Of a stretch of DNA of 64,000 nucleotides, positions 7,715 through 56,284 are shown piece after piece. The stretch's first letter is position 1; every line of letters begins with the position of its first letter. The notes beneath the pieces are model-generated. The model was not told where the DNA came from, made no database searches, and saw nothing but the letters and a program-made list of their open reading frames with translations. The DNA comes from an uncultured Candidatus Saccharibacteria bacterium (GTDB taxonomy: Bacteria > Patescibacteriota > Minisyncoccia > Phycocordibacterales > PALSA-1337): the NCBI GenBank assembly GCA_964481175.1, contig CAYZSZ010000001.1, positions 1,602 to 65,601 on the forward strand, in the 5' to 3' direction. The position numbers and the translations under genes were made by a program.

Positions 7715-8974
7715 ATGAGTGATGTGGTATCACCGAGCACCTCTCGGACAATTCGTCGTATACCTATAAACCGCAAACAACTCGAACGCGAAGTAGAAGA
7801 AGAACCTGTAGAAGAATACGTTCGCCCTCGACGTACCACTTCTCACCGTAGTGCGCCTCCAAAAGGTAGCAGTCTATTTACAAAGATCACCCTTGTTGCA
7901 GTCGTACTTATCTCTATTGTTGCTATTGCAGCAGCTATATCTCTTGCATATTCAAAAGGAACTTTGAGCATTGAACCAAAAAAGATAGAAACATCGATAA
8001 ATATCGGTTTTGCAGCAAATCCATCTGGTGACTCGCTCACGTATTCAACTATTACAGCCTCTGACACATCTATGGAAGTAGTCGCAGCAAAGCCAGGTAG
8101 CTTTTATCAGAGCAAAGCTCGTGGCAACGCAACGGTAACAAACGGTAGTACCGAAGAGCAGCAGCTAGTTATCAACACTCGCCTCGAGACGGCTGACGGC
8201 AAGATATATCGCCTCACAAAGCCTATCGTGATCCCAGCAGGTAAAAAAGTAAGTGTACCTATCGTAGCTGACGAAAGCGGAGCTGATTGGAATATCACAA
8301 AAGCAGCTGCAGGAAAACTAAAAGTGCCTGGTTTCAAGGGCAGCAAAAAGTATGATCAGTTCTTTGCTGAGCTAGATGACGATATTGTAGGTGGCTTTTC
8401 AGGAACCAAAAATGTAGTTGATGAAAAGGTCTTAAGAGAAACTCGTGATCGTTTGGTTTCTTCTGTGACTGAGCTCGTAAAGGCAAAGCTAAAAGCACAG
8501 GTTGATTCAAACTCTGTTTATTTCGATACGCTCACAGTGATCTCTATTGAGGATCTTCCACAGATTGCAAAAGGCAGCAATCAAAGCCAGATCGCTGTAA
8601 AGGGGAGTGGACTTGCATATGTGTTTGATCGAACTGCGCTCACAAAAACTTTGGGTGCAAATGAGGTCAAAAAACTTGGCTCTGATTCTTTCAAAGCGTT
8701 GGGTATAGAAAAAGTAACCATTACTCCAAAAGCACCCCTAAAATACAGCCCTACAGCAGCTCTCAGCCTCACGGCGGTAGGTAACATTACTATCGTAGGA
8801 AACGTGCCTGTAGAGACCTTAAAAAAGGAATTGGTGGGCATAAAAGTGGCTGATTTAAACAATATTCTCAAGAAATACGACGGTATTAGCAAGGCAAGCG
8901 CAAAGATCTCACCATTCTGGAAAAAAGCCTTTCCTGCTAGTTCTGACCGCATTTATGTCGAGGTAAGCGAATAG
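7715..8974 (+). CDS. bitopic membrane protein with Pro/Arg-rich cytoplasmic N-terminus, hypothetical
   Basis: Charged N-terminus, one TM helix 'ITLVAVVLISIVAIAAAISLAY', large extracytoplasmic domain. Confidence 0.45.
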   Translation: MSDVVSPSTSRTIRRIPINRKQLEREVEEEPVEEYVRPRRTTSHRSAPPKGSSLFTKITLVAVVLISIVAIAAAISLAYSKGTLSIEPKKIETSINIGFAANPSGDSLTYSTITASDTSMEVVAAKPGSFYQSKARGNATVTNGSTEEQQLVINTRLETADGKIYRLTKPIVIPAGKKVSVPIVADESGADWNITKAAAGKLKVPGFKGSKKYDQFFAELDDDIVGGFSGTKNVVDEKVLRETRDRLVSSVTELVKAKLKAQVDSNSVYFDTLTVISIEDLPQIAKGSNQSQIAVKGSGLAYVFDRTALTKTLGANEVKKLGSDSFKALGIEKVTITPKAPLKYSPTAALSLTAVGNITIVGNVPVETLKKELVGIKVADLNNILKKYDGISKASAKISPFWKKAFPASSDRIYVEVSE

Positions 8975-8979
8975 TGATA

Positions 8980-9008
8980 TTGCAATATAAGCATATCTCT
9001 GCTAGTAT
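8980..9008 (+). promoter_or_regulatory. sigma70-like promoter TTGCAA-N17-TAGTAT upstream of infA cluster
   Basis: -35 at 8980-8985, -10 at 9003-9008. Confidence 0.4.
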
Positions 9009-9271: not shown

Positions 9272-9388
9272 ATGAAAGTTCGAGCGTCAGTTAAAAAAGT
9301 ATGTGAAAAATGTAACGTAGTTCGCCGAAAGGGCTACGTCTATGTTGTCTGCAAAGGAAACCCTCGACATAAACAACGACAAGGCTAA
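9272..9388 (+). CDS. rpmJ: 50S ribosomal protein L36
   Basis: Hand-translated 38-aa [41 protein letters not shown] (zinc-ribbon L36). Not in the ORF track because it is under 60 aa. Confidence 0.85.
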
Positions 9389-9399
9389 ATTTTAATCAT

Positions 9400-9780
9400 A
9401 TGCGTATACTTGGTATTACAATTCCTGAAAACAAACGACTTGAGATTGCTCTCACTACTCTATATGGTGTAGGACGATCACGAGCACAATTTATTTTGAA
9501 AACAGCTGGCATCGACTTTGGTGCAAAAGCAAAAGACCTGACAACTGACCAGGAAAATGCAGTTCGAAAGATTTTTGAAGGATACAAGATAGAAGGAGAT
9601 CTCAAACGAGAGATCGGAGCAAACATCAAGCGCCTCAAAGACATCAAAACATACCGAGGTAGCCGACATGCAAAGCGTCTCCCAGCTCGAGGACAGCGAA
9701 CAAAGACAAACTCTCGAACTCTTCGAGGAAACGTTCGAAAGACGATGGGATCAGGACGTAAGAAGGAAGATAAGAAGTAA
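9400..9780 (+). CDS. rpsM: 30S ribosomal protein S13
   Basis: 'MRILGITIPENKRLEIALTTLYGVG...' is a canonical S13 N-terminus. Confidence 0.95.
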   Translation: MRILGITIPENKRLEIALTTLYGVGRSRAQFILKTAGIDFGAKAKDLTTDQENAVRKIFEGYKIEGDLKREIGANIKRLKDIKTYRGSRHAKRLPARGQRTKTNSRTLRGNVRKTMGSGRKKEDKK

Positions 9781-9785
9781 TTTAT

Positions 9786-10208
9786 ATGGCTAAAAAAACC
9801 GAAACAACAACAGAAAAGAAAGTCGAAGCAAAGCCTGCAGTACAGGTCTCTTCTAAGAAGCGACTTGATAGTGGCATCCTTTTTGTTCAGTCTACCTACA
9901 ACAACACAAAGGTTATGCTTGCTGACATGTCAGGAAATGCAGTAATGTGGTCAACCGCTGGTGCTCTTGGATTCAAGGGTGCAAAAAAGGGTACTCCATT
10001 CGCAGCTGCAAAGATTGGTGAAGCACTTGCTGTAAAGGCCGCTCTTATCGGTCTCAAAGAAGTTGCTGTTGTTGTTAAGGGAGTAGGTTCTGGACGAGAA
10101 TCTGCTATCCGAGGCTTTACTTCAAAGGGAATCAACATCTCAAGCATTACAGACGAAACTCCAGTTCCGCACAATGGTCCAAAGCCTAAAAAGCCACGTC
10201 GAGTATAA
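9786..10208 (+). CDS. rpsK: 30S ribosomal protein S11
   Basis: S11 core '...GILFVQSTYNNTKVMLADMSGNAVMWSTAGALGFKGAKKGTPFAA...'. Confidence 0.95.
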   Translation: MAKKTETTTEKKVEAKPAVQVSSKKRLDSGILFVQSTYNNTKVMLADMSGNAVMWSTAGALGFKGAKKGTPFAAAKIGEALAVKAALIGLKEVAVVVKGVGSGRESAIRGFTSKGINISSITDETPVPHNGPKPKKPRRV

Positions 10209-31121: not shown

Positions 31122-31197
31122 TTATATAGTATATCAAAATACAAACCCCACACATGCTATTTCAATGTGCGGGGGTGTTTTGCTCGAACCAGAGGTA

Positions 31198-31911
31198 TTA
31201 TCTGACCTTGATTCGGTATTCGATAGCAACGTCGACGATTTGAAGACCGTATGCTCGAAGCTTTGCGTCGAGCGGCACAAGCGCTGCACACAACTTTGCT
31301 TTTTCCGTAAGGAACTGTGTGCTATGCACAGGATTACTCGGGTATGATGCCAATGCGGCTTTAATCACCGCATTCTCAGGAGAGTCCTCGATTATTTTTC
31401 GAATCAAAGGCGTCCTGAGATCATCGCGACTGAAAGTCTCGCTTGTGAAAAGATTGTACTCGACCAAGAGCTTGGCTCTCGCCAGCAGGTCAGCACGCGA
31501 GTTTGAGCCCGTATAGGTTATGACCACTATCCAGTCACTGTTGGTTCCACCGACAAAGCCGACAGTTTGCGGATCAAAGATGGATGAAACAGCCACTTGA
31601 TGCAAAGAAAGAGCGCGCCGGCCATCGCTGAAGTTGTTGTTCCAACGTGACTGTGAGATGATGCCCGAGGCAGTTGGTTCGGCCACATACTCGAACTTGC
31701 CGTTCTTGTCGAAGACGGCGTACGTAGCGTTCTGAGACTCGAAGAAAAATGGGCTTGCTACGAGCGCGGCCCCGATCGCAAACACCACCACGGTGACGCA
31801 TCGGTCTTTTTTTCTCTTGAACGCTCCGGGGAGTCCGAGCAAGCTGACACAAAAAAAGACAAACCCAAAGATGACGGCAAGGGCCCAGAGAATCTGAATG
31901 ATTTCCGACAT
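31198..31911 (-). CDS. membrane-anchored hypothetical protein (GC-rich gene)
   Basis: 237-aa ORF with N-terminal TM helices. Sits in a patch with higher GC than its flanks. Confidence 0.45.
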   Translation of the reverse strand: MSEIIQILWALAVIFGFVFFCVSLLGLPGAFKRKKDRCVTVVVFAIGAALVASPFFFESQNATYAVFDKNGKFEYVAEPTASGIISQSRWNNNFSDGRRALSLHQVAVSSIFDPQTVGFVGGTNSDWIVVITYTGSNSRADLLARAKLLVEYNLFTSETFSRDDLRTPLIRKIIEDSPENAVIKAALASYPSNPVHSTQFLTEKAKLCAALVPLDAKLRAYGLQIVDVAIEYRIKVR

Positions 31912-45838: not shown

Positions 45839-46846
45839 ATGAGCGTAAATCCTTTCAAACCGCGACTGCACAAACTAGCATCTCGCACTGGTGCCGCTCC
45901 GGTGCCAGCCATCGAAGTGCCCAGAGTAGACCCTGATCCAGCACCTGCAGCAGTGAGTCATGTCCGTTCTCTCGCCCGCGAGGGTGATTATGCACTGCGG
46001 TCGTATTTGCGAGAAATCAGCGAAGTCCCCCTCCTCACACCACAGGAGGAAATCGAACTGGCAGGCAGAATCCAGGCCGGTGACCACCGGGCTCGCGATC
46101 GTATGATCCGTGCCAACCTCCGCCTGGTGGTGAAAATCGCCAAGGATTATGACGGGATGGGCTTGCCCCTCCTCGACATGATCAACGAAGGCAACATCGG
46201 CCTCATGAAGGCTGTCGAGCGTTTCGACCCTACCAAGGGAGCAAAGCTCTCGACGTACGCAGCCTGGTGGATCAAACAAGCCATCAAGCGAGGACTTGCC
46301 AATCAAGGAAAGACGATCCGTCTCCCGGTCCACCTGGTGGACCGAGTGGCAAAAATCCGTCGCACCGCGATCAAGCTCCACGAGGAGCTTGGGCGTGAGC
46401 CGACTGATGCAGAGATCGCCGAAGTCCTGGGCATGACCGCCGAGCGAGTGACCGAGCTCATCACAGCGAGCTATCGTCCTGCATCACTGGACGCGACCGT
46501 CGGAGAAGATGGTGAGTCGGAGTTTATGGATATCGTGCCTGACCCGAATAGCACGACTGCCTACGAAGACTTCGAGCAGCAGACTCGGCACGAGCTCATC
46601 AAGAAACTTACTGTCGCACATCTCGATGACCGTGAGCTCGCAATCATTCAGTCCCGCTTCGGTATCGACGGCGGCTCCGAGCGTACGCTTGAGGAAGTGG
46701 GCGAGCGATTTGGCGTCACCCGCGAGCGGATCCGGCAGCTTCAAAACATTGCGCTCAAAAAGCTTCGGAAAGCGATGCTAAAGCACGAAGCAGTCCGAGA
46801 CCCTGAGCTGGATGAGCTGGCTGCCAGAGCATCAGCAATCAAGTAG
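45839..46846 (+). CDS. RNA polymerase sigma-70 family factor (RpoD/SigA-like, regions 1.2-4)
   Basis: Region 2 '[37 protein letters not shown]'-type sequence; region 4 HTH '[29 protein letters not shown]'. Distinctly GC-rich versus neighbours. Confidence 0.85.
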   Translation: [335 protein letters not shown]

Positions 46847-46905: not shown

Positions 46906-48183
46906 TTAAATCAAATCCAAGTACTCCCCATACCCCAATTCTTTCATTCTCTCTTTTGGGATAAATCTTAATGCAGCAGAGTTCATACACCACCGCTTTC
47001 CTCCTTTGTCCTGTGGTCCATCATCAAATACATGTCCAAGATGTGAGTCAGCGACAGCAGAACGGACCTCGGTGCGTTTTGTAAACAACGTATTGTCTTC
47101 GTGGAGAGTGACTGCTTTTTCTGAAATAGGTTTTGTGAAAGAAGGCCAGCCAGTTCCTGACTCGTATTTGTCTTTTGATGAAAATAGGGCTTCACCAGAA
47201 ACAATATCTACATATATTCCCTCTTCATGGTTGTCCCAATACTCATTTTCAAACGGTGGCTCCGTGCCATTTTCTTTTACTACATGATACTGGAGCTCGG
47301 TGAGCCCAGAATGTTTTTTAATGTATTCATTTCTTCCCGAAGCATTGCGGTAATATGTGTAGCGAACTGGATTCTTTTCATAATAGTCCTGGTGATAGTC
47401 TTCGGCTTTATAAAAAACAGGTCGTGGGAGGATCGGTATCGGTAGTCCTTTTGCTACTTCACGGGCGATCTTTTCTTCTTCTTTATTTCCAAAATATATT
47501 GCTGATGAGTACTGTAGTCCCCGATCGACAAAAGAGCCGGTCGTATCGTTTGGATCTGCGTGAGTCAAAATATGCTCGACTAGTTTCCGGTAATTTATCT
47601 TTGTAGCATCGTAGTGCACTTCGACTACCTCTCGGTGGCCTCCTGCTGCATAGTTTTCATATGTTGGATTAGCTGTGGTACCGCCAGCGTATCCAGAGAT
47701 GACATCTCCGACTCCACGTAGTTTTTCAAAATCTGCTTCGACACACCAAAAGCACCCACCAGCAAAGAGTGCTGTACTGTCAGCTGTCACTATTTCTTGT
47801 GTTGTTTCTGGTTTGTCTTTCCAAATATGTAGATAGACCCCGGCATAGTGGACGACAACATAGAGAAAGAAAATGTAGCCGACAACACAGGTGATCACAG
47901 TGAGTGCGACTGTATTTATGATTTCATTTCTGCGACGCTTTGCTTCATCGATCGTACATATTCCCTTTTTTCTCCTGAAATAAAGAAACAAAGCGATCAC
48001 CATGGCGATGAGTCCCGCTATACGAAAGACCCATTTGTAGTCTCCATACAGTGTGTCAGCGAGAGAGGTGGCAAAGCCCAATGTGCCGATACCAAACACA
48101 ACTAGAATCACCGGAGAAAGACAGCAGAGTGAAGCGATGATGACTGGCACAGAACTTATTTTGAGGATTTCTTTGATATTCAT
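46906..48183 (-). CDS. msrAB: membrane-anchored methionine sulfoxide reductase MsrA-MsrB fusion with MerT-like N-terminal domain
   Basis: N-terminal TM domain with vicinal Cys '[10 protein letters not shown]'. MsrA '[11 protein letters not shown]'. MsrB C-terminus '...[13 protein letters not shown]'. Confidence 0.8.
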
Positions 48184-48272
48184 GTGGTAAGTATAGCACT
48201 GTTGACTTTATGTAAAGACAATGTCATAATCCGCCTGTTAGTCAACAAAAACCAAGAGAAAGAGAGTTCTAG

Positions 48273-48869
48273 ATGTCCTTTAACATCAGAAACGTTCAAT
48301 TCGTGTTCGCACGTCACGGTCAGGCCGATCCGGCGAAAATCGGACAGCAGGACCAAGACCGGCCGCTCAATGAGACGGGAATCGAACAAGCAAAAAGCCT
48401 GGAGCGAATGCTTGTGAACATGGTCTTCGACCTCGCGCTCATTTCGCCGACGAACCGCAACTGGCAGACTGCAGAGATCGTGCTCGAAGACATGCGGCCT
48501 GAGATGATGGAACTGGAAGCCCTCCTCAATCACCAAGACGGCAGTGTCAACGCCGACATCAAAGCGATGTATGAGGAGCTTGGGCACTCCACTCTCCGTG
48601 CCTACCTCAGGCACCCAAAGGCAGAGGCGCTGCGAAGTTTTGCTGAGCATGCGGCTCGTGAAATCGAAAGCGAAGTCGCTCTTCGGGCAGACGAGGCCAC
48701 AGCGTTTGACGTCTTCGTCTCCGGCAATAGCGTCCTCATGAACGCGATCATCAGCGAGATGTTCCCCACCTGCGCCGCAAACGTACTCGACTTCGTCTTT
48801 ACCGAGGGCGGTGCGGTCAAGATCAGTGTCGACCATCATGGTGATGCGACGTTCATCGTCGTGAACTGA
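48273..48869 (+). CDS. histidine-phosphatase superfamily protein, SixA-like (copy 1)
   Basis: 'VQFVFARHGQADP...DRPLNETGIEQAKSL...LALISPTNRNWQTAEIV' parallels SixA 'VFIMRHGDA...RPLT..G...LISPFLRAEQT'. GC-rich. Confidence 0.55.
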   Translation: MSFNIRNVQFVFARHGQADPAKIGQQDQDRPLNETGIEQAKSLERMLVNMVFDLALISPTNRNWQTAEIVLEDMRPEMMELEALLNHQDGSVNADIKAMYEELGHSTLRAYLRHPKAEALRSFAEHAAREIESEVALRADEATAFDVFVSGNSVLMNAIISEMFPTCAANVLDFVFTEGGAVKISVDHHGDATFIVVN

Positions 48870-48903
48870 TCTACGGTTCGGAGCACTCCTCAAGCTTCAA
48901 CGA

Positions 48904-48936
48904 CCCATCATGTCTCTGACCTCTGGTGGGTTTTTC
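48904..48936 (+). terminator. terminator after SixA-like copy 1
   Basis: CCCATCA-N13-TGGTGGG stem followed by TTTTT. Confidence 0.5.
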
Positions 48937-49013
48937 TATTATTGACTCACAAGGCGAATTATAGTAAAAAGATGTAGTTAGTAAACAGAACCAAAAAGAA
49001 GAAAGGTAGTCTT

Positions 49014-49637
49014 GTGACACGATTCTACAATTGCACATTGGTATTTGTCCAGCACGCCCAGGCAGCATCGGGCAGCGACGACAGAACGCGCATTCTCACC
49101 ATTGGAGGGCGGCGACAGGCTGTCGCGCTCATGGAGAGACTTGGTGGACTGAGGTACGACTTTGTCGTCATCTCACCTACGAACAGAGCCCGGCAGACCG
49201 CGGGCGCTCTCGCGGGCGACATTGAGACGACGAGAATCATCGAGATCAAATCGATGTACGGAACCTTGGTTCCGGCCGATCACCGAGATCTGTTGGGGAT
49301 GTTTGGGGATCTTGGTTACGACAGGCCTCTGGCGGATTATTTCAGCCACAGGCATAACCCTGCCCTGCGCCGACTCTCCGAGCAATGCGTCCTCGACATC
49401 CGCCAGGATCTCGGCGACGCAGTTGCTGGCAGAAACCTCTTGTTTGTCGGCCATCCTGGCCTGTTGAGCGGATTGATTTACAACATGTTCGACGAAGGCG
49501 CAATTAAAACCCTTGCCCTCACCCACGTTCTTGGCGAATGCGGAGCGATACGCATCGACACCGACGGCCAAGGCGAAGCAGTCGCTGAAGTCGTCGCACA
49601 GGGCCGCGTCGAAACAGTCACGGCAGTCGTGCACTGA
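49014..49637 (+). CDS. histidine-phosphatase superfamily protein, SixA-like (copy 2, degenerate RHG -> QHA)
   Basis: Paralogue of copy 1 ('LVFVQHAQAAS...ISPTNRARQTAGAL'). The same 3' tail 'TACGGTTCGGAGCA.TCC.CAAGCTTCAA' and a terminator follow both copies. Confidence 0.5.
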   Translation: MTRFYNCTLVFVQHAQAASGSDDRTRILTIGGRRQAVALMERLGGLRYDFVVISPTNRARQTAGALAGDIETTRIIEIKSMYGTLVPADHRDLLGMFGDLGYDRPLADYFSHRHNPALRRLSEQCVLDIRQDLGDAVAGRNLLFVGHPGLLSGLIYNMFDEGAIKTLALTHVLGECGAIRIDTDGQGEAVAEVVAQGRVETVTAVVH

Positions 49638-49672
49638 CAAGTACGGTTCGGAGCATTCCACAAGCTTCAAAA

Positions 49673-49710
49673 CCCCACCACGTCGGAAGACCTGGTGGGG
49701 TTAGTTTATT
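49673..49710 (+). terminator. terminator after SixA-like copy 2, shared with convergent gene
   Basis: CCCCACCA-N12-TGGTGGGG stem followed by a T-rich tail. Confidence 0.5.
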
Positions 49711-50615
49711 CTGATTAGGCTTTTTTCTGAATCGATTTCAATAACTGCTCCGTCTTTTATTATTTTACTTGCTACTTTTGTTTCTGTAACAAAAGGTTTT
49801 CTGAAAGCATATACGCTAGCGAAAATGGCGATGTCAGCGTGACTCGTCACCCCTCCCTCATCCGTCACGATCCCCGCAGCTTTGTGAAGTATTGGTAGGT
49901 AGAGGGGTGTGGTCATGGGAGCGACGAGGATGTCGCCTTCGTTTAGTTTGTGAAAGTCTTTGGGTGAGAGGATGATTTTGGCGATGCCTTTTACATTGCC
50001 TTTGTAGGCCACGTTCCCTTTTATTTCTTTTACCCGCTCCACTACTTCTTCGACATACTCAAAATTATTTTTCTTTAAAAACTCATCCCATGAAAGCGGA
50101 ACATAGGTACCAGAGTGAAATATAAAAGTATCTGGTACCGGGACATGTTCGACGGCTTTGTAAAAAGGCTCGAGTGCGGCATCGACGAGCTCGCGGTATA
50201 TGCGGCAGCGATTTATGATCTCTTCACTTCGATCTGTCTGTATATCAGCACTCCACATATTTGAAATATAGTATGGGACAACTGCGTGGACGTAGAGTCG
50301 GGCAAAACAATCGACGAGTTCGGGGATACTTACTTTGTCGTGCAGCTTTTGCTTGAACTGTTGTATCAAGTCTTTGCAAACATCAATATTGGTTTTAAAT
50401 GCATCCGAGTACGCATAGGCAAACATCAATGGTTTTAGCCGCGCATGCTCCTCTTCTGCTCGGATAGAGTCCATCCGCTCACCATCATACTTCATGATGT
50501 AGTGCTCGTACGCATCACCGATGAGGTCACGGAGATATTTTGTCTGAGCCAAAGAGGCTGCTTCAAACATCGGTGGAGCTATGTATCGAGTGCCCATTTT
50601 CTGAAGGCGGATCAT
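49701..50615 (-). CDS. PEP-utilising-enzyme mobile (phosphohistidine swivel) domain protein, divergent head-less paralogue P1
   Basis: C-terminus 'GDILVAPMTTPLYLPILHKAAGIVTDEGGVTSHADIAI...' aligns with the swivel domain of P2-P5, but it lacks the 'AREMKIPCV' block. Confidence 0.55.
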   Translation of the reverse strand: MIRLQKMGTRYIAPPMFEAASLAQTKYLRDLIGDAYEHYIMKYDGERMDSIRAEEEHARLKPLMFAYAYSDAFKTNIDVCKDLIQQFKQKLHDKVSIPELVDCFARLYVHAVVPYYISNMWSADIQTDRSEEIINRCRIYRELVDAALEPFYKAVEHVPVPDTFIFHSGTYVPLSWDEFLKKNNFEYVEEVVERVKEIKGNVAYKGNVKGIAKIILSPKDFHKLNEGDILVAPMTTPLYLPILHKAAGIVTDEGGVTSHADIAIFASVYAFRKPFVTETKVASKIIKDGAVIEIDSEKSLIRIN

Positions 50616-50728
50616 GAAATAAATATAGCATTTTATTGATAGGCTTGAGGGGCTTGAAGTATTGCATTATATGTGTTATAGTTTTTTCCGAACAGCAACA
50701 ACAGCACCCCAAACCTTAGGAGTACCAA

Positions 50729-51172
50729 GTGAATCCCAGCAAACCCTGTAAAATTCTTTGTGTTTGTCGCGGCAACGCCGACCGCAGTCCAGCAATGGCT
50801 ACTATCCTGGATTTGTTCCTGACGCGTGCCGGCGCTAACGTCATTTGTGACAGTGCCGGCCTGACTGAAAATGCTGCCAATGGTGGCCCAGCGCCACGGC
50901 ACGTGGTGACCGCAGGCAGGCGCATCGGAATCGACCTGTCGAGACACCGCCGCAAGCACATCAACTCACTGACTCTCACAAGCTACGACCTCATCATCAC
51001 GGTGGATGACGAAGTCGCATCTGTGCTCGTCAAGGCAGGTGTGCTGCCAAGAATGATCTACAACGCGAACATCCCGAACCCTTGGCCCGTTCAGTTCCAG
51101 GAGGACTATGACCAGACGTTTGGCCTGATCCTCGCCACCATGTACCGGGTGGTCAGTCGTTACTACCCGTAA
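50729..51172 (+). CDS. LMW protein-tyrosine-phosphatase / ArsC-like family protein
   Basis: P-loop 'ILCVCRGNADRSP' (C-X5-R-S). No clear DPYY general-acid motif. GC-rich. Confidence 0.55.
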   Translation: MNPSKPCKILCVCRGNADRSPAMATILDLFLTRAGANVICDSAGLTENAANGGPAPRHVVTAGRRIGIDLSRHRRKHINSLTLTSYDLIITVDDEVASVLVKAGVLPRMIYNANIPNPWPVQFQEDYDQTFGLILATMYRVVSRYYP

Positions 51173-51228
51173 GCGCAGCAATCGCCTGCAGCACGCAGCC
51201 CGACCAGACGAGTTCTGGTCGGGCTGAA

Positions 51229-52293
51229 CTATTTTATTATCTTAACAACTCCAGTATTAGCATCTACTTCAACTAGGTCTCCGTCTTTAAATACTTGCGT
51301 GGCGATTTTAGTATTCGTAACACATGGTATTTTCATTTCTCGAGCTACGATGGCTGCATGGCAAAGAATACCTCCAGCGTCAGTCACAAATGCTGCTGCC
51401 TGTTGCATAATAGGTAACCACTCTGGTCGCGTCATTGTAGTCATGAGAATCTCTCCAGGTTGAAACTTATTACAATCTTCATCTCTAAAGATAATTCTTA
51501 CCCTTCCCTGAACTAAGCCGGCAAAAGCCTTTGTACCCTTAATCTCGACTGTTCCGTCTTTTACTTCAGTAATTCTTGAAATCAGTTCCCTGGCCACTTT
51601 TCCCACAAATAGTTTTGCACCTTTACTATCAGTATAAGAAACAGAGTACTCGTATCTTTCTTTAAGATTATTATAATCTGGCAATGTTCCATTCTGAATG
51701 TAGTTTTTGAACTCATTTAATGACAACGCCTGGAGATACGCTTCGTTTATATTTTCTTTTTGACTGATCAAGCTAAACACGGCACAAATATATTTCTCTA
51801 TACTTGAGTACATGTGCTCTGTGTCTTTACGGGCTTTCTCAAAAAGAGCTAGTACTTCTATTTTTCTCTGTTCATTGCCCTCAATACTTTTAATTTCATT
51901 TGAAGCCCAAATCGGCACTAGAAAGTGTGGAATTAACTTCAAGTGCAAACTCACAAATTTTTCAAATTCTTCAGCCGAAGGGATCTTTGCATCTATGCCT
52001 ATGATTTTATCTATTTCGTTTTGAATTCTACTAAGTTCAGCTACTGATTTTTCTGCATACCCTGTCAGAATAATGGAGTTTTTTGCCAGAGTCATTGCAA
52101 CCTCTTTAGTTTCAGATTCTATTCTAAAAAGTGTAACTAGACCATTTTCATACCTGAATAGTATGTGCTCAAACCCAGCACCGACTTCCTTTTTCATTTC
52201 AAAAATGTACTCTTTTGCGAAAAGCTCTATCGAAATAGCAGAATATTTTGTAGTCCAGATCTTTACCCAATTTTGTTTTTGTATATTTTCCAT
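51229..52293 (-). CDS. PEP-utilising swivel-domain protein, head-less paralogue P2
   Basis: Unique ~260-aa N-domain. C-terminal 'GEILMTTMTRPEWLPIMQQAAAFVTDAGGILCHAAIVAREMKIPCVTNTKIATQVFKDGDLVEVDANTGVVKIIK'. Confidence 0.65.
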   Translation of the reverse strand: MENIQKQNWVKIWTTKYSAISIELFAKEYIFEMKKEVGAGFEHILFRYENGLVTLFRIESETKEVAMTLAKNSIILTGYAEKSVAELSRIQNEIDKIIGIDAKIPSAEEFEKFVSLHLKLIPHFLVPIWASNEIKSIEGNEQRKIEVLALFEKARKDTEHMYSSIEKYICAVFSLISQKENINEAYLQALSLNEFKNYIQNGTLPDYNNLKERYEYSVSYTDSKGAKLFVGKVARELISRITEVKDGTVEIKGTKAFAGLVQGRVRIIFRDEDCNKFQPGEILMTTMTRPEWLPIMQQAAAFVTDAGGILCHAAIVAREMKIPCVTNTKIATQVFKDGDLVEVDANTGVVKIIK

Positions 52294-53289
52294 TTATTTT
52301 ATTACCTTTACTATACCAGTATTCGCATCTACTTCAACTAGGTCTCCATTTTTGAGGAGCTGAGTCGCTTTTTTGACCCCTACCACACACGGTATTTTGA
52401 GCTCTCGAGAAGTAACCGCGGCATGGCTGATCACTCCACCGTGCTCGGATACGATCGCGCCTGAGATTTTCATAATGGGTAAAAGATCCGGTGTGGTAGT
52501 CGATGCAACGAGTATGTCTCCCTGCTCGAAAGTGTGCATGTCTTTTCGAGAGTTTATGATCTTCACTCTACCTTTAACCTTTCCGGGAAAAGCGACTTGC
52601 CCAGTCAGATCTTGCCTTTCCTCATTTGGATATTCAAAATCAAATTCGGCACAGACATCGTCCCAGGTATCATACAACCTATTATTTGTATATGCGTATC
52701 CAGCTAATCTTTTTTCTAAAACTTCATCACTTGGCAATCTGTCAGATAAAATCTCACTTAGTAAAAGTACATTGGCGTACTTGATTTTTTCTGGATATAT
52801 TTTCTTTGCAGAATTTCTAAAGACAGCAAAGCAACCTGGTGCAAAATATTCTGTATACTTTCGCATTTCGAGCAGTGCGTCAAAAGGAATACCTCGCTTT
52901 TCTCGGTACTCGATCGCCCACCACATATAGGCGATCCATGGGTAAAATATTTTGAGCTTATCGATAAAATCCTTGAACTCCTCACGTGACAAAGCTTTTT
53001 CTTCTCTCAGTGCGGTTTCTATACTTGGATAGTATGTTCGAATCTGCTGAATCGCGTATGCCTCATCATCATACTTGCCCGCTTGCTCACGTAGCCACTT
53101 TAGACCATCTGTATTACAAAAATAGTACGACAGCTTGCCATCGTTGCGACAAACGATGAAAGGCTGCACTAAAAATTCTTCTGTGCTCCACGGAAATCTT
53201 TTTGACCCCTCAAGCTCATGATGAATCTCGGTAAAACTGAGTGGTACGTCAAGATGGACTAGTTCTTCAATTTTGAGCTTCTTTTTCAT
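52294..53289 (-). CDS. PEP-utilising swivel-domain protein, head-less paralogue P3
   Basis: Unique N-domain. C-terminal '...GDILVASTTTPDLLPIMKISGAIVSEHGGVISHAAVTSRELKIPCVVGVKKATQLLKNGDLVEVDANTGIVKVIK'. Confidence 0.65.
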   Translation of the reverse strand: MKKKLKIEELVHLDVPLSFTEIHHELEGSKRFPWSTEEFLVQPFIVCRNDGKLSYYFCNTDGLKWLREQAGKYDDEAYAIQQIRTYYPSIETALREEKALSREEFKDFIDKLKIFYPWIAYMWWAIEYREKRGIPFDALLEMRKYTEYFAPGCFAVFRNSAKKIYPEKIKYANVLLLSEILSDRLPSDEVLEKRLAGYAYTNNRLYDTWDDVCAEFDFEYPNEERQDLTGQVAFPGKVKGRVKIINSRKDMHTFEQGDILVASTTTPDLLPIMKISGAIVSEHGGVISHAAVTSRELKIPCVVGVKKATQLLKNGDLVEVDANTGIVKVIK

Positions 53290-54302
53290 TACTTTAAAAT
53301 TTTCACGACTCCAGTATTCGCATCTACTTCAACTAGGTCGCCGTCTTTGAGGACTTTGGTTGCTATTTTGGTGCCCACAACACATGGCACCTTGAGTTCT
53401 CGACTTGCGATCGCTGCATGGCACGTTGCCCCACCTTCATCTGTCACGATTGCACCTGCAATTTTCATATATGGAACGTAATCTGGGTTAGTCATTTCAG
53501 TTACAAGAACATCGCTTGGTTGTATCTTTGAAGCGTCAGCTTTTACTCGAACAATTTTGACAGTACCTGTGACCTTACCAATCTGTGCTGGTCTTCCTTT
53601 TATCTCGACAACCTGTTCTGCTTTCACCACCTCTAAAGAAAGACCTTGATCAGTTAATATTTTTTCTAGTTGATCAAGTGGAAAAACTCTACGATTAAGC
53701 ATAAAACAACCTTGCAGGCGCTCGAAGACTTCTGGCTTTTTGCCTTTTGCTATTGAAATAGCCTCTTCTGGCAAGAGAACAGAGACAAACTGTTTATATT
53801 GCGGATAATAGTTATTCCAAAACTCTACATATAACTTATTTGCTTCCTCAGAATATTTCTCAGCTTCGATACGACGATCGAGGGTCTCTTTTTTAAAATC
53901 TGCTGGTGCATTTTCACTATCTGGTACACCGAAGACAGTATTCATGGCTGACCACCACTCAACAAGAAGTGAATAATACTGAGCTAACTCATCTGCATTT
54001 GTAATCTTTTTTTCTTGTTTGAGATACGGAGAAAGCTGTATCCAACTTTCATCTAGCGTCTTTATTATTTCTGATTGAAAAGAAGGCTCAGTGACTTTTA
54101 CTTTTAAAAGCGACTCGATCTCTTGTAACTCGATTTGAGAATACCAGACCGAGCCTTTTTGACCCTCAGGTGAGACGATAAATAAATTGTTTTTTACTTC
54201 GTGGTTGAGAAAGCGTTTGTAACCCAAACGATCACTGTCATTCCACATTGTGAAATAGAACAATGTTTTTTCCCGAGAAAAGATGTTTGATAAAGTGATC
54301 AT
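53289..54302 (-). CDS. PEP-utilising swivel-domain protein, head-less paralogue P4
   Basis: Unique N-domain. C-terminal '...SDVLVTEMTNPDYVPYMKIAGAIVTDEGGATCHAAIASRELKVPCVVGTKIATKVLKDGDLVEVDANTGVVKILK'. Start overlaps the P5 stop (ATGA). Confidence 0.65.
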   Translation of the reverse strand: MITLSNIFSREKTLFYFTMWNDSDRLGYKRFLNHEVKNNLFIVSPEGQKGSVWYSQIELQEIESLLKVKVTEPSFQSEIIKTLDESWIQLSPYLKQEKKITNADELAQYYSLLVEWWSAMNTVFGVPDSENAPADFKKETLDRRIEAEKYSEEANKLYVEFWNNYYPQYKQFVSVLLPEEAISIAKGKKPEVFERLQGCFMLNRRVFPLDQLEKILTDQGLSLEVVKAEQVVEIKGRPAQIGKVTGTVKIVRVKADASKIQPSDVLVTEMTNPDYVPYMKIAGAIVTDEGGATCHAAIASRELKVPCVVGTKIATKVLKDGDLVEVDANTGVVKILK

Positions 54303-56284
54303 TTTATTATCCTAACTATACCCTTTTCTGCATCAACTTCAACTAAGTCTCCGTCTTTAAATACTTGTGTGGCAATCTTGGTGCCTATCACACATGGTTT
54401 TTTCATTTCACGAGCAATGATCGCTGCGTGACATGTTATACCTCCTTCATCAGTTACAAACGCGGCAGCCTTTTTCATCGCTGGCACCATATCAGGTGTA
54501 GTCATTGGTGATACAATAATCTCACCTTCTTTTGTTTGATCAACTTGGTCTTTTCTTTTTACTATCCTAACCACGCCGCGCACATTTCCTCGGTAGGCAC
54601 TCTGTCCTTTTATTCCGTCTTCGGTTTGTTCTCCACTATCGATAATAAATTTGAACTCAGGAAATTTCTTTACCAAATCACCGAAACTAATTACACCGAC
54701 AAACAAGCCAGGAACAAGCGCAAAGCCTGTATCTCTTTTTTCAAGCTCTGTTTTGTCGATCTTTACGCCAAGCTCCTCCCGAGTGACATATACAGATAAA
54801 TAACCAAAATCAGGGTATATATTATTGAGTGCTCGTGTGATTGCTGCATTACACTCTGCGAAGAAAACATCTTTCTCTCTAAACTCGCTCGCCAACTTTT
54901 GATACTCCGCAGGAACTCTCTGGTCGACAAGCGCCGTATAGAGGATTACAAAATCAGACACACCCGCGTACACAAGCTCAACAAAAGAGTTGAGCTCTTC
55001 GAGAGTTTTAATATCTTTTTTCCACCATTCTTGAGCCTGAGCAAGTATCTGAAAATACCTTTTGTGGACAGCTGGAAAAAAATCTTTGTCTGAAATAAAT
55101 TTTTCTACAAGAATATCAACAAGCCACTGATTTGTTTTTACATTTTCCCAGACTTCTTCGACTCCATCTTTCATGAAATAAAGATATGGAGAGCTATGTG
55201 GGTACTCTTTGAGATCTAATTTCTTTATAATGCCCTCTCTATTTGCAGTGATCCATGCCTGCTGCATGATGATTGAAAAGTTTCGGGTGTATGCTTTGAC
55301 GTATGTTTCTCGTTCTTCCTGTTCTAGAGATACTTGCCTGGGACTCAATGTCGTAATCGGTCGACTTTGCACGACATAGAACTCACCTCCTTCATATGCC
55401 CACTCGATATCGCATGGAAAGCCGTAATGCTTTTCGATGTTTAAAATAATTCCTGAAAGCTCGAGTATGCCTGCTTCGTTGAGTACTTGTGAGCTCGCTT
55501 TTGGCTCGGCGATATCTTTCCATTCATTTCCTCCACCTTCTACACGATATAATGCGCGCTCCTGTGTAGAAACATTGATATCGATAATCTTTCGTGGTTC
55601 CTTTTCTACTACATAGCTATCCGGTGTCACCGATCCAGAAACGATCGCCTCACCCAAGCCAAAACCTGCTTCGATGATGAGCTGATTGTAATCCTCAGTC
55701 ACTGGGTGTACTGAGAAAGCGATTCCTGAAACTTCAGAGTTGACCATCTTTTGGACAACAACGGCTACAGAGATCTTTGTGGTGTGTAGTCCTTTTTCAA
55801 AACGATAGAAGATGGCGCGTGGAGTAAAGAGTGATGCCCAGCAATGTTTTACTTTTTCCAAAAGTCCGTCTTTTGTAATATTCAAATAGCTCTCGAGCTG
55901 TCCTGCCCAGGCATGTTCTTTTCCATCCTCTGCTGTTGCTGATGATCGTACTGCAACGTATTTTGTGTCGAGTGCAGCAAAGGCCTTTTCAATATCTGCT
56001 TCGATATCTTTTGGCATGTCTTTTGAGAGGATGAGCTCTTTTATCTTTTCGCTCGCAGCCTCTACGGTATGGATCGCTTTGTGATCGACTGACTCGAGGA
56101 TGGCATCGATCTCCTGCACGAGATCTGTTTCTTTTATAAATTGTTCAAATGAGTTTGAAAGCACCACAAAGCCGGGCGGTACTGGTATGCCTGCTTGAGA
56201 CATCTCCCCGAGCGACGCACCCTTACCTCCTGCTATATCTGCATCTGTTTTTGATAGTTTTGAAAAGTGTCGTACGAGTTCCAT
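54299..56284 (-). CDS. PEP synthase-like / rifampin-phosphotransferase-like three-domain protein (ATP-grasp PPDK_N head + central domain + swivel His domain), P5
   Basis: N-terminus 'LSKTDADIAGGKGASLGEMSQAGIPVPPGFVVLSNSF' is a PPDK_N/PEP-synthase nucleotide-binding domain. C-terminus 'GEIIVSPMTTPDMVPAMKKAAAFVTDEGGITCHAAIIAREMKKPCVIGTKIATQVFKDGDLVEVDAEKGIVRIIK'. Confidence 0.75.
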   Translation of the reverse strand: MELVRHFSKLSKTDADIAGGKGASLGEMSQAGIPVPPGFVVLSNSFEQFIKETDLVQEIDAILESVDHKAIHTVEAASEKIKELILSKDMPKDIEADIEKAFAALDTKYVAVRSSATAEDGKEHAWAGQLESYLNITKDGLLEKVKHCWASLFTPRAIFYRFEKGLHTTKISVAVVVQKMVNSEVSGIAFSVHPVTEDYNQLIIEAGFGLGEAIVSGSVTPDSYVVEKEPRKIIDINVSTQERALYRVEGGGNEWKDIAEPKASSQVLNEAGILELSGIILNIEKHYGFPCDIEWAYEGGEFYVVQSRPITTLSPRQVSLEQEERETYVKAYTRNFSIIMQQAWITANREGIIKKLDLKEYPHSSPYLYFMKDGVEEVWENVKTNQWLVDILVEKFISDKDFFPAVHKRYFQILAQAQEWWKKDIKTLEELNSFVELVYAGVSDFVILYTALVDQRVPAEYQKLASEFREKDVFFAECNAAITRALNNIYPDFGYLSVYVTREELGVKIDKTELEKRDTGFALVPGLFVGVISFGDLVKKFPEFKFIIDSGEQTEDGIKGQSAYRGNVRGVVRIVKRKDQVDQTKEGEIIVSPMTTPDMVPAMKKAAAFVTDEGGITCHAAIIAREMKKPCVIGTKIATQVFKDGDLVEVDAEKGIVRIIK

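What the first reader, a model, noticed from the sequence alone, without database searches (positions are those of the whole stretch)
48273..49710. Tandemly duplicated GC-rich SixA-like histidine-phosphatase genes with complementary active-site degeneration, next to the phospho-His array
Two paralogous ORFs (48273-48869 and 49014-49637) each carry the same ~35-nt 3' tail (TACGGTTCGGAGCA.TCC.CAAGCTTCAA) and a CCCA(C)CA/TGGTGGG terminator, so a unit of ~750 bp is duplicated. Both resemble the phosphohistidine phosphatase SixA (histidine-phosphatase branch 1). Copy 1 keeps the RHG nucleophile motif ('FARHGQA') but appears to have Asn where the second catalytic His is expected ('VSGNSVL'). Copy 2 has RHG degenerated to 'QHAQA' but keeps a 'GHPG' His. 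Both are much GC-richer than the AT-rich neighbours, suggesting horizontal acquisition. Phospho-His phosphatases beside phospho-His carrier proteins form a coherent theme. The alignment of catalytic positions was done by eye and may be off.
Basis: partly seen in the sequence, partly recalled or inferred. Interest (0 to 1): 0.6.

Follow-up and report, generated by a model that had tools for sequence, protein, structure and literature searches.

The report
Paired SixA-like histidine phosphatase genes
Two old, fast-evolving copies of a small phosphatase gene, each with one catalytic residue changed, belong to an undescribed family that in ultra-small (CPR) bacteria almost always sits next to an array of phospho-histidine "swivel" proteins and is oddly GC-rich.

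Summary
Window 48273-48869 (HP1) and 49014-49637 (HP2) are real plus-strand genes of the histidine phosphatase superfamily, branch 1 (Pfam PF00300). They are 29% identical. Each has its own promoter, a conserved 29-nt post-stop tail and a terminator.

Catalytic residues:
- HP1 keeps Arg-His-Gly and the second Arg, but has Asn152 in place of the second His in all three lineages.
- HP2 keeps both His, but has Gln14 in place of the first Arg in three of four lineages. The fourth keeps a canonical Arg-His-Ala.

- **Family:** they belong to an uncharacterised subfamily of 180-200 aa that is mostly canonical.
- **Neighbourhood:** in 6 of 8 independent contexts a member sits beside or inside an array of PEP-utilizers swivel-domain genes. 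This supports a phospho-His link, which remains inferred.
- **Horizontal acquisition:** not supported. GC-richness is a trait of the family in every locus examined, and the substitution spectrum is balanced.

HP1 and HP2 evolve three to nine times faster at non-synonymous sites than their neighbours, while their non-coding flanks are nearly invariant. Moderate interest.

The parts
48202..48272 (+). HP1 promoter (TTGACT-17-CATAAT with upstream TG) and 5' UTR containing GTTAGTCAACA and a purine-rich ribosome-binding site
   Evidence: Promoter scan, 10 of 12 matches. Nearly invariant in relatives whose HP1 protein is only 75-88% identical.
48273..48869 (+). HP1, 198 aa, His_Phos_1. Has Arg14-His15-Gly16 and Arg62, with Asn152 in place of the second catalytic His.
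48872..48900 (+). Conserved 3'-UTR tail of HP1 (TACGGTTCGGAGCACTCCTCAAGCTTCAA), with a possible 5-bp hairpin GGAGC/GCUUC
48904..48935 (+). HP1 intrinsic terminator (CCCATCATG...CTGGTGGG followed by TTTTTCT)
48943..49013 (+). Putative HP2 promoter (TTGACT-17-TAAAAA) and 5' UTR (GTTAGTAAACA...AAAGG)
   Evidence: Read from the sequence. Aligns with the HP1 upstream region. About 96-100% conserved in relatives. Not called by the consensus scan.
49014..49637 (+). HP2, 207 aa, GTG start, His_Phos_1. Has Gln14-His15-Ala16 (Arg replaced), Arg58 and His147.
49642..49670 (+). Conserved 3'-UTR tail of HP2 (TACGGTTCGGAGCATTCCACAAGCTTCAA)
49673..49705 (.). HP2 terminator hairpin (CCCCACCACG...CCTGGTGGGG). 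It is shared with the convergent PEP-utilizers gene that ends at 49701.
   Evidence: A TTTTGA run follows the hairpin on the minus strand.
49701..50615 (-). First gene of the swivel-domain array: unknown N-terminal domain plus a PEP-utilizers mobile His domain. Convergent with HP2.
   Evidence: PF00391 E 2.2e-15.
50729..51172 (+). GC-rich low-molecular-weight phosphotyrosine-phosphatase-like gene embedded in the array
   Evidence: PF01451 E 1.9e-11. GC3 0.669.
51229..56284 (-). Rest of the array: three swivel-domain paralogues, then a 661-aa protein with a PPDK_N ATP-grasp domain and a swivel domain (rifampin-phosphotransferase-like architecture)

Best explanation
HP1 and HP2 are an ancient tandem duplicate. 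They belong to an uncharacterised, SixA-like subfamily of the histidine phosphatase superfamily (branch 1). The subfamily is found in Candidate Phyla Radiation (Paceibacteria-type) genomes. Each gene is its own transcription unit: promoter, conserved 5' UTR, coding sequence, conserved 29-nt 3'-UTR element, terminator.

The family is functionally tied to the adjacent array of dikinase-like proteins. These carry a phospho-histidine on a PEP-utilizers swivel domain, which a PPDK_N ATP-grasp domain loads from ATP. The most likely job of the ancestral enzyme is to strip the phosphate from that swivel histidine, or from the product the array phosphorylates. This would reset or limit the pathway, much as SixA dephosphorylates NPr~P and Ndk~P in E. 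coli.

After the duplication both copies came under relaxed constraint. HP1 fixed His152Asn. HP2 acquired Arg14Gln in most lineages. Both keep the nucleophile His15, so they are probably weakened or altered phosphatases, or phospho-protein binders, rather than dead genes.

Shown: family membership, fold, residue substitutions, gene neighbourhood, evolutionary rates, and conservation of the non-coding flanks.

Inferred: the substrate, the residual activity, and the role of the tail.

The confidence of 0.45 is for the functional reading (action on the phospho-histidine carrier or its product). Identity as diverged His_Phos_1 paralogues is near certain.
For: Family and fold:
- PF00300 hits.
- Confident AF2 models.

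Subfamily:
- 227 representatives at E<1e-10 and 10 at E<1e-30, covering the full length.
- hhalign probability 100% between the HP1/HP2 profile and a profile of 40 other members.
- 38 of those 40 members match sixA and 39 match CobC at E<=0.001. The one member tabulated scores 47 bits on sixA against a cut-off of 74.5.
- Core residues in the family: Arg 145/151, His 146/151, Arg 147/151, His 144/151.

Neighbourhood. An HP gene lies convergent with, or inside, a PEP-utilizers array in the window, L257, L259, L260, L263 and L264/L265. L260 has two HP-like genes inside the array.

Array chemistry. The 661-aa protein matches the ATP-grasp and swivel domains of rifampin phosphotransferase structures 5fbs and 5hv1.

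Precedent. SixA dephosphorylates NPr~P and Ndk~P on histidine (PMC7948535, PMC12934123). A SixA-like MutT1 domain dephosphorylates histidine kinases (PMC12407098).

Relaxed constraint:
- Window versus L001: dN is 0.163 (HP1) and 0.283 (HP2), against 0.03-0.05 in four flanking genes.
- dN/dS is 0.23 for both against 0.03-0.05.

Progressive loss. A single-copy HP1-like relative, P0125, has lost both His (RNG and GNA), while P0126 and P0129 are canonical.

The tails are separately conserved. One tail position is T in every HP1 tail and A in every HP2 tail across three lineages. A covariance model finds the element only behind HP genes.
Against: - No biochemical data exist for any member.
- The insert of about 50 residues (helices 90-139 in HP1) resembles the cap that shapes small-molecule specificity in PhoE, CobC and dPGM. 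SixA lacks it. The substrate could therefore be a small phosphorylated metabolite rather than a phospho-protein.
- Two of eight contexts (L261, L262) show no adjacent PEP-utilizers gene, though both contigs are short.
- Loss of the RHG Arg or the second His usually lowers activity strongly in this superfamily (my own knowledge, not tested here), so one or both proteins may be inactive.
- Covariation support for the small 3'-UTR hairpin is weak: one compensatory pair, two broken cells, and 59 of 500 shuffles score as high.
- The LMW-PTP gene in the array suggests that phosphatases other than HP may serve the array.
Confidence: 0.45

Rival explanations
1. HP1 and HP2 are small-molecule phosphatases or mutases (PhoE, CobC or phosphoserine-phosphatase-like). 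Their position next to the swivel array reflects a shared metabolite, not protein dephosphorylation. For example, they might remove the phosphate that the dikinase-like array puts on a small substrate.
For: - NCBIfam CobC, archaeal dPGM and SixA models score about equally and all fall below their cut-offs.
- The profile alignment to CobC 6e4b and PhoE 1ebb runs through the whole domain, including the helical insert.
- Rifampin-phosphotransferase-like enzymes phosphorylate small molecules (architecture match).
Against: - For HP2 the three best structural matches are all SixA-type.
- The RH[GA]xA signature and the GH-P motif resemble SixA homologues.
- The position corresponding to the PhoE Glu is not conserved in the family: Glu in 38 of 151.
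Confidence: 0.3
2. The pair is a horizontally acquired GC-rich island that is decaying. The substitutions are the first steps of pseudogenisation, and neither the pairing nor the location has functional meaning.
For: - GC3 of 0.65-0.69 against a window mean of 0.40.
- Lowest codon adaptation in the window.
- Raised dN/dS and catalytic-site changes.
- A relative has lost both His.
Against: - Both reading frames are intact in all 4-5 lineages, with dN/dS of 0.22-0.35, well below 1.
- The promoter, UTR and tail are under strong purifying selection.
- GC-richness relative to the host is seen in every locus of the family, including distant members such as L264 (0.545 against 0.354).
- GC-to-AT and AT-to-GC changes are balanced: 19 versus 16 in HP1, 34 versus 27 in HP2. 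There is no amelioration signal.
- Synteny with the array recurs across distant genomes.
Confidence: 0.1
3. HP1 and HP2 form an obligate heterodimer, or act as an enzyme plus pseudo-enzyme pair. In this pair one degenerate partner regulates or targets the other.
For: - Both genes are kept side by side in three lineages.
- Each carries a different single change in its catalytic core.
- Their UTR elements are similar, suggesting co-regulation.
Against: - The L001/L002 lineage has a fully canonical HP2, so the complementary pattern is not a constant of the pair.
- Several relatives carry a single HP gene (L257, L262, L264).
- The catalytic residues belong to one pocket in one monomer (superfamily architecture, my own knowledge).
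- No complex prediction could be run with these tools.
Confidence: 0.1

Closest known systems
SixA phosphohistidine phosphatase (E. coli; PDB 1ujc; NCBIfam TIGR00249)
   Same: - Shares the RH[GA]xA N-terminal signature, the SP..R..QT second-Arg motif and the GH-P second-His motif (HP2).
- Sits next to proteins that carry phospho-histidine, in line with the known SixA substrates NPr and Ndk (PMC7948535, PMC12934123).
   Different: - Scores 33.6 and 22.1 bits against the SixA cut-off of 74.5.
- About 40-50 residues longer, owing to a three-helix insert between strands 3 and 4.
- HP1 lacks the second His; HP2 lacks the first Arg.
- Activity is unknown.
PhoE / CobC-type broad-specificity histidine phosphatases (PDB 1h2e, 1ebb, 6e4b)
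   Same: - Similar length (about 200 aa), with a helical cap region.
- Profile alignment runs across the whole domain, including the second His.
- A JGI annotation of the orthologue P0003 reads 'broad specificity phosphatase PhoE'.
   Different: - Far below the curated cut-offs: CobC 32 bits against 163, PRK15004 37 bits against 250.
- The PhoE catalytic Glu position is not conserved in the family.
- The signature is RHGxA rather than RHGET.wN.
Catalytically degenerate members of the histidine phosphatase superfamily (for example flea acid-phosphatase-like proteins, PDB 8gdl, PMC10728186; tau55/Tfc7)
   Same: A natural histidine-phosphatase fold with one or two of the catalytic residues replaced. 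The relative P0125 has lost the nucleophile itself.
   Different: - Those examples are eukaryotic and belong to other branches or contexts.
- HP1 and HP2 both keep the nucleophile His, and their family is otherwise canonical.

Membership tests
Histidine phosphatase superfamily, branch 1 (Pfam PF00300) | Profile HMM score above the gathering threshold (21.7 bits) | tested here: met
   HP1 57.2 bits; HP2 37.5 bits.
Histidine phosphatase superfamily, branch 1 (Pfam PF00300) | Alpha/beta fold shared with solved members | tested here: met
   [not shown]
Histidine phosphatase superfamily, branch 1 (Pfam PF00300) | RHG motif: Arg followed by the nucleophile His | tested here: inconclusive
   HP1 has R14-H15-G16. 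HP2 in the window has Q14-H15-A16, so the His is kept and the Arg is lost. HP2 of L002 has RHA.
Histidine phosphatase superfamily, branch 1 (Pfam PF00300) | Second Arg of the phosphate pocket (SP..R..QT) | tested here: met
   HP1 Arg62 and HP2 Arg58. It is Lys in the relative P0008.
Histidine phosphatase superfamily, branch 1 (Pfam PF00300) | Second catalytic His | tested here: inconclusive
   HP2 His147 aligns to the CobC and PhoE His. HP1 has Asn152 there in all three lineages, and there is no His anywhere in that segment.
Histidine phosphatase superfamily, branch 1 (Pfam PF00300) | Phosphatase or mutase activity through a phospho-His intermediate | not testable with these tools
   Needs enzymology.
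SixA (NCBIfam TIGR00249 equivalog) | Score at or above the curated cut-off of 74.5 bits | tested here: not met
   33.6 bits (HP1) and 22.1 bits (HP2). The one canonical family member tabulated, P0126, scores 47 bits.
SixA (NCBIfam TIGR00249 equivalog) | Minimal domain of about 155-170 aa without a cap insertion | tested here: not met
   HP1 is 198 aa and HP2 207 aa. Helices 90-139 (HP1) and 87-137 (HP2) are inserted. Only about 140 residues align to 1ujc.
SixA (NCBIfam TIGR00249 equivalog) | Dephosphorylates phospho-histidine on proteins | not testable with these tools
   Indirect support only: gene neighbourhood with swivel-His proteins in 6 of 8 contexts.
Intrinsic (Rho-independent) terminator | GC-rich hairpin followed by a T run | tested here: met
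   HP1: 9-bp stem followed by TTTTTCT. HP2: 10-bp stem followed by TTAGTTTATT, a weaker T run. Two compensatory pairs in the stem across relatives.
Diversity-generating retroelement target | A variable repeat at the 3' end of the gene that matches a template repeat, with adenine-specific differences and a reverse transcriptase nearby | tested here: not met
   The retroelement beside HP2 in L001/L002 targets a different gene (9289-10020). The window has no RT, Avd or target homologue.

The most novel reading that the evidence does not exclude
These phosphatases are deliberately 'mis-coded' brakes. An entire gene family is kept GC-rich and codon-poor inside AT-rich CPR genomes. It is wrapped in invariant 5' and 3' UTR elements, so that a phospho-histidine phosphatase (or, in degenerate copies, a phospho-histidine-binding pseudo-enzyme) is made only in small, tightly controlled amounts beside the dikinase-like swivel array it would otherwise short-circuit. 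This would be a new regulatory layer for a still-uncharacterised CPR phosphotransfer system.
Probability: 0.15. Interest if true: 0.7.

Novelty: new variant of a known kind. Interest (0 to 1): 0.42.

Why it matters
Phospho-histidine phosphatases are few and poorly understood. CPR bacteria carry large, unexplained arrays of PEP-utilizers (swivel-His) paralogues.

A dedicated SixA-like family is consistently placed against those arrays. This gives a concrete, testable handle on what the arrays do. It also offers a natural series for studying how histidine phosphatases turn into pseudo-enzymes:
- canonical members;
- one residue lost (HP1, HP2);
- nucleophile lost (P0125).

The GC-richness of one small gene family persists across AT-rich genomes. 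Its coding sequence evolves fast while its non-coding flanks are nearly frozen. This is an unexplained compositional and evolutionary oddity that may reflect expression control.

Tried and rejected
1. Diversity-generating retroelement link. An RT and bAvd sit right after HP2 in L001/L002. However, the template and variable repeats (8879-9004 and 9291-9416, all 22 mismatches at adenines of the minus strand) belong to another gene, and the cassette is absent from the window.
2. Minus-strand shadow ORFs as the real genes. They have no family hits and are not conserved in L001.
3. Read-through or an alternative code extending the ORFs into the tail. The tail is in different frames relative to the two stops, and L001 has a 1-nt deletion in it.
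4. Recent gene conversion as the reason the tails are alike. Orthologue-specific differences are kept across lineages.
5. A known RNA family in the tail or UTRs. Rfam gave only chance-level hits, E above 3.
6. Genome and metagenome DNA scans for the tail. My pattern had only 14 fixed bases, so both scans returned random matches. None of the 240 loci contains the full tail.
7. mRNA-structure selection as the cause of GC-richness. Codon-shuffle z-scores were inconsistent: HP1 -0.06, HP2 -1.9, L264 -1.8, L260 -4.1.
8. Anti-phage defence system. PADLOC gave no hits for HP1, HP2 or the array.
9. An integron attC-like site in the tail. No R/L box pattern was seen by eye; this was not pursued.
10. 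The AFDB fold library was unavailable.
11. The literature search found no description of the association between HP genes and swivel arrays.
Full report
**What is in the sequence**

The two plus-strand ORFs, 48273-48869 (HP1, 198 aa) and 49014-49637 (HP2, 207 aa, GTG start), exist as described. Both match Pfam PF00300, His_Phos_1, above its 21.7-bit gathering score: 57.2 and 37.5 bits. They are 29% identical over 195 residues (E 2e-21).

The minus-strand ORFs that shadow them have no family match. They are broken in the relative L001, so they are a side effect of the GC-rich sequence.

The post-stop tail TACGGTTCGGAGCAYTCCWCAAGCTTCAA occurs exactly twice in 64 kb, with none expected by chance. 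Each copy is followed by a CCCAYCA...TGGTGGG hairpin.

The duplicated unit also includes a TTGACT promoter and a similar 5' UTR. Each gene is therefore a complete, monocistronic unit of about 750 bp.

**Organism and relatives**

Close homologues are very rare: three for HP1 and four for HP2 among 5.8 billion clustered proteins. One comes from a genome labelled Candidatus Pacebacteria/Paceibacterota.

Three further lineages keep the same gene order:
- EamA;
- sigma-70;
- MsrAB, on the minus strand;
- HP1;
- HP2;
- the PEP-utilizers genes.

A fourth HP2 lineage is known from a short contig, L256.

**Catalytic residues**

MAFFT alignments and profile alignments to solved CobC and PhoE agree.

| Protein | First Arg | Nucleophile His | Second Arg | Second His |
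|---|---|---|---|---|
| HP1, three lineages | Arg14 | His15 | Arg62 | Asn152 |
| HP2, window and L256 | Gln14 | His15 | Arg58 | His147 |
| HP2, P0008 | Gln | His | Lys | His |
| HP2, L001/L002 | Arg (RHA) | His | Arg | His |

- The Gly-to-Ala change is normal for the family: 44 of 151 members have it.
- The 'complementary' pattern is two independent events of different age.
- All four residues line one pocket of one chain, so the two proteins cannot complement each other across subunits.

**Fold and family**

Neither protein reaches the SixA equivalog cut-off: 33.6 and 22.1 bits against 74.5. Both carry a three-helix insert of about 50 residues that SixA lacks.

An exhaustive HMMER search with an HP1/HP2 profile found a wider subfamily of proteins of about 180-200 aa: 227 representatives at E<1e-10. 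The match is full-length (hhalign probability 100%).

Of 40 other members scanned, 38 match sixA and 39 match CobC at E<=0.001. The one member tabulated scores 47 bits on sixA against a cut-off of 74.5.

In that subfamily the four core residues are canonical in 95-97% of members, so HP1 and HP2 are exceptions. A single-copy HP1-like relative, P0125, has lost both histidines (RNG and GNA). P0126 and P0129 are canonical. P0129 sits next to MsrAB as a single gene with a recognisable tail, and may show the state before the duplication.

**Gene neighbourhood**

In the window, HP2 is convergent with the first gene of an array of four paralogues. Each has an unknown N-terminal domain and a PEP-utilizers swivel domain. 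The array ends in a 661-aa protein with a PPDK_N ATP-grasp domain and a swivel domain. This architecture matches rifampin phosphotransferase structures.

The same arrangement recurs in unrelated contexts of the family:
- L257: an HP gene followed by a PEP-utilizers gene and a PPDK_N gene.
- L259 and L263: a PEP-utilizers C-terminus faces the HP gene.
- L260: two HP-like genes inside an array of six swivel genes and a PPDK_N-swivel gene.
- L264/L265: an HP gene convergent with five or more swivel genes.

That is 6 of 8 contexts. The other two (L261, L262) are short contigs.

This is the strongest evidence for function. SixA is known to remove phosphate from histidine on NPr and Ndk (PMC7948535, PMC12934123). 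A SixA-like MutT1 domain acts on histidine kinases (PMC12407098). No paper in the library describes this association.

**Evolutionary rates**

| Comparison | Gene | aa identity | dN | dS | dN/dS |
|---|---|---|---|---|---|
| window vs L001 | four flanking genes | 92-95% | 0.03-0.05 | – | 0.03-0.05 |
| window vs L001 | HP1 | 75% | 0.163 | – | 0.23 |
| window vs L002 | HP2 | 60% | 0.283 | – | 0.23 |
| window vs L005 | MsrAB | 100% (nucleotide) | – | – | – |
| window vs L005 | HP1 | 88% | 0.067 | 0.19 | – |
| window vs L008 | HP2 | 83% | 0.087 | 0.39 | – |

- The L001/L002 rows are the same lineage: the HP2 sequence was taken from L002.
- The L005/L008 lineage is the closer relative. L005 carries HP1 and L008 carries HP2.

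The non-coding parts behave the opposite way. The HP2 promoter and 5' UTR and both tails are nearly invariant across the same lineages.

One tail position is T in all HP1 tails and A in all HP2 tails. The tails were therefore kept separately, not homogenised by gene conversion.

A covariance model of tail plus terminator finds the element only behind HP genes, including two loci not used to build it (L256 and L259, E about 4e-6).

RNAalifold proposes a 5-bp hairpin, GGAGC/GCUUC, upstream of the terminator. L257 has one compensatory change (GGAAC/GUUUC), but L262 breaks two pairs. The statistics are weak: 59 of 500 shuffles score as high. The loop and the 5' flank (GGTTCG, CAYTCC) are the most conserved parts. 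The element is therefore real and constrained, but its mode of action (RNA hairpin, protein-binding site or small-RNA site) is open.

**GC-richness**

HP1 and HP2, together with the sigma factor, the LMW-PTP gene and 31198-31911, are the GC3 outliers of the window (0.59-0.69 against 0.405). They also have the poorest codon adaptation.

This is not a one-off island. HP-family genes are 9-19 percentage points GC-richer than their surroundings in every locus examined. This includes distant members such as L264 (gene 0.545, GC3 0.70, against 0.354 for the rest of the locus).

Polarised substitutions are balanced: GC-to-AT versus AT-to-GC is 19 versus 16 in HP1 and 34 versus 27 in HP2. Recent horizontal acquisition followed by amelioration is therefore not supported. 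The trait is being maintained, for reasons I could not establish. A test for selected mRNA structure was inconsistent.

**Verdict**

The genes are diverged, relaxed paralogues of an uncharacterised SixA-like histidine phosphatase subfamily. Its conserved partner is the swivel-histidine array.

The best-supported mechanism is dephosphorylation of the phospho-histidine carrier, or of its phosphorylated product. HP1 and HP2 would be attenuated or altered versions. I put the specific phospho-protein reading at about 0.45. The small-molecule reading is the main rival at about 0.3.

This is a new variant of a known kind. Interest is moderate, and is raised by two things: the family-wide GC anomaly, and the contrast between a fast-changing coding sequence and frozen flanks.

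Noticed in passing
L001 7470-10020 (also L002 7280-8660); absent from the window between 49670 and 49701: A complete diversity-generating retroelement lies between HP2 and the swivel gene in a sister lineage. It has a reverse transcriptase (minus strand), a bAvd gene (plus strand), a template repeat at 8879-9004 and a variable repeat at 9291-9416. The variable repeat lies in a 243-aa GC-rich target gene. All 22 mismatches between template and variable repeat are at adenines of the minus strand. The window has no homologue of any part.
   Followed up: yes
window 45842-46846, 48273-49637, 50729-51172, 31198-31911; L264 6001-6567; L260 3185-3793 and 5001-5588: A small set of genes is much GC-richer than its AT-rich host genome: two kinds of phosphatase, a sigma-70 factor and one unknown gene. 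These genes have the worst codon adaptation in the window. For the HP family this holds in every locus examined. The cause is unexplained.
   Followed up: partly
window 45842-46846: The group-2-like sigma-70 factor, which is also GC-rich and monocistronic, evolves fast. It is 73% identical to its L001 orthologue, while the flanking genes are 92-95% identical. The N-terminal region also differs in length.
   Followed up: partly
window 46906-48183 versus 48273-48869: MsrAB is 100% identical at the nucleotide level between the window and L005. HP1, 90 bp away, is only 91% identical. This suggests mosaic recombination or a very local rate difference between strains.
   Followed up: partly
window 31135-31197 (minus strand): Directly after the GC-rich gene 31198-31911 there is GGTTCGAGCA followed by a CCCCGCACA...TGTGTGGGG terminator. 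This faintly resembles the HP tail (covariance model E 0.42). It is probably chance.
   Followed up: partly
window 49701-56284: An array of four short paralogues, each with an unknown N-terminal domain and a PEP-utilizers swivel domain. One rifampin-phosphotransferase-like protein with an ATP-grasp and a swivel domain completes the array, and an LMW-PTP gene is embedded on the opposite strand. Similar arrays of five to seven genes occur in L260 and L264. Their function is unknown, and there were no PADLOC hits.
   Followed up: partly
L005 end / L008 start (window 48894-48910): Several independent short-read assemblies break exactly between the HP1 tail and its terminator. This is consistent with strain-level polymorphism at CCCAYCATG in those samples.
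   Followed up: no
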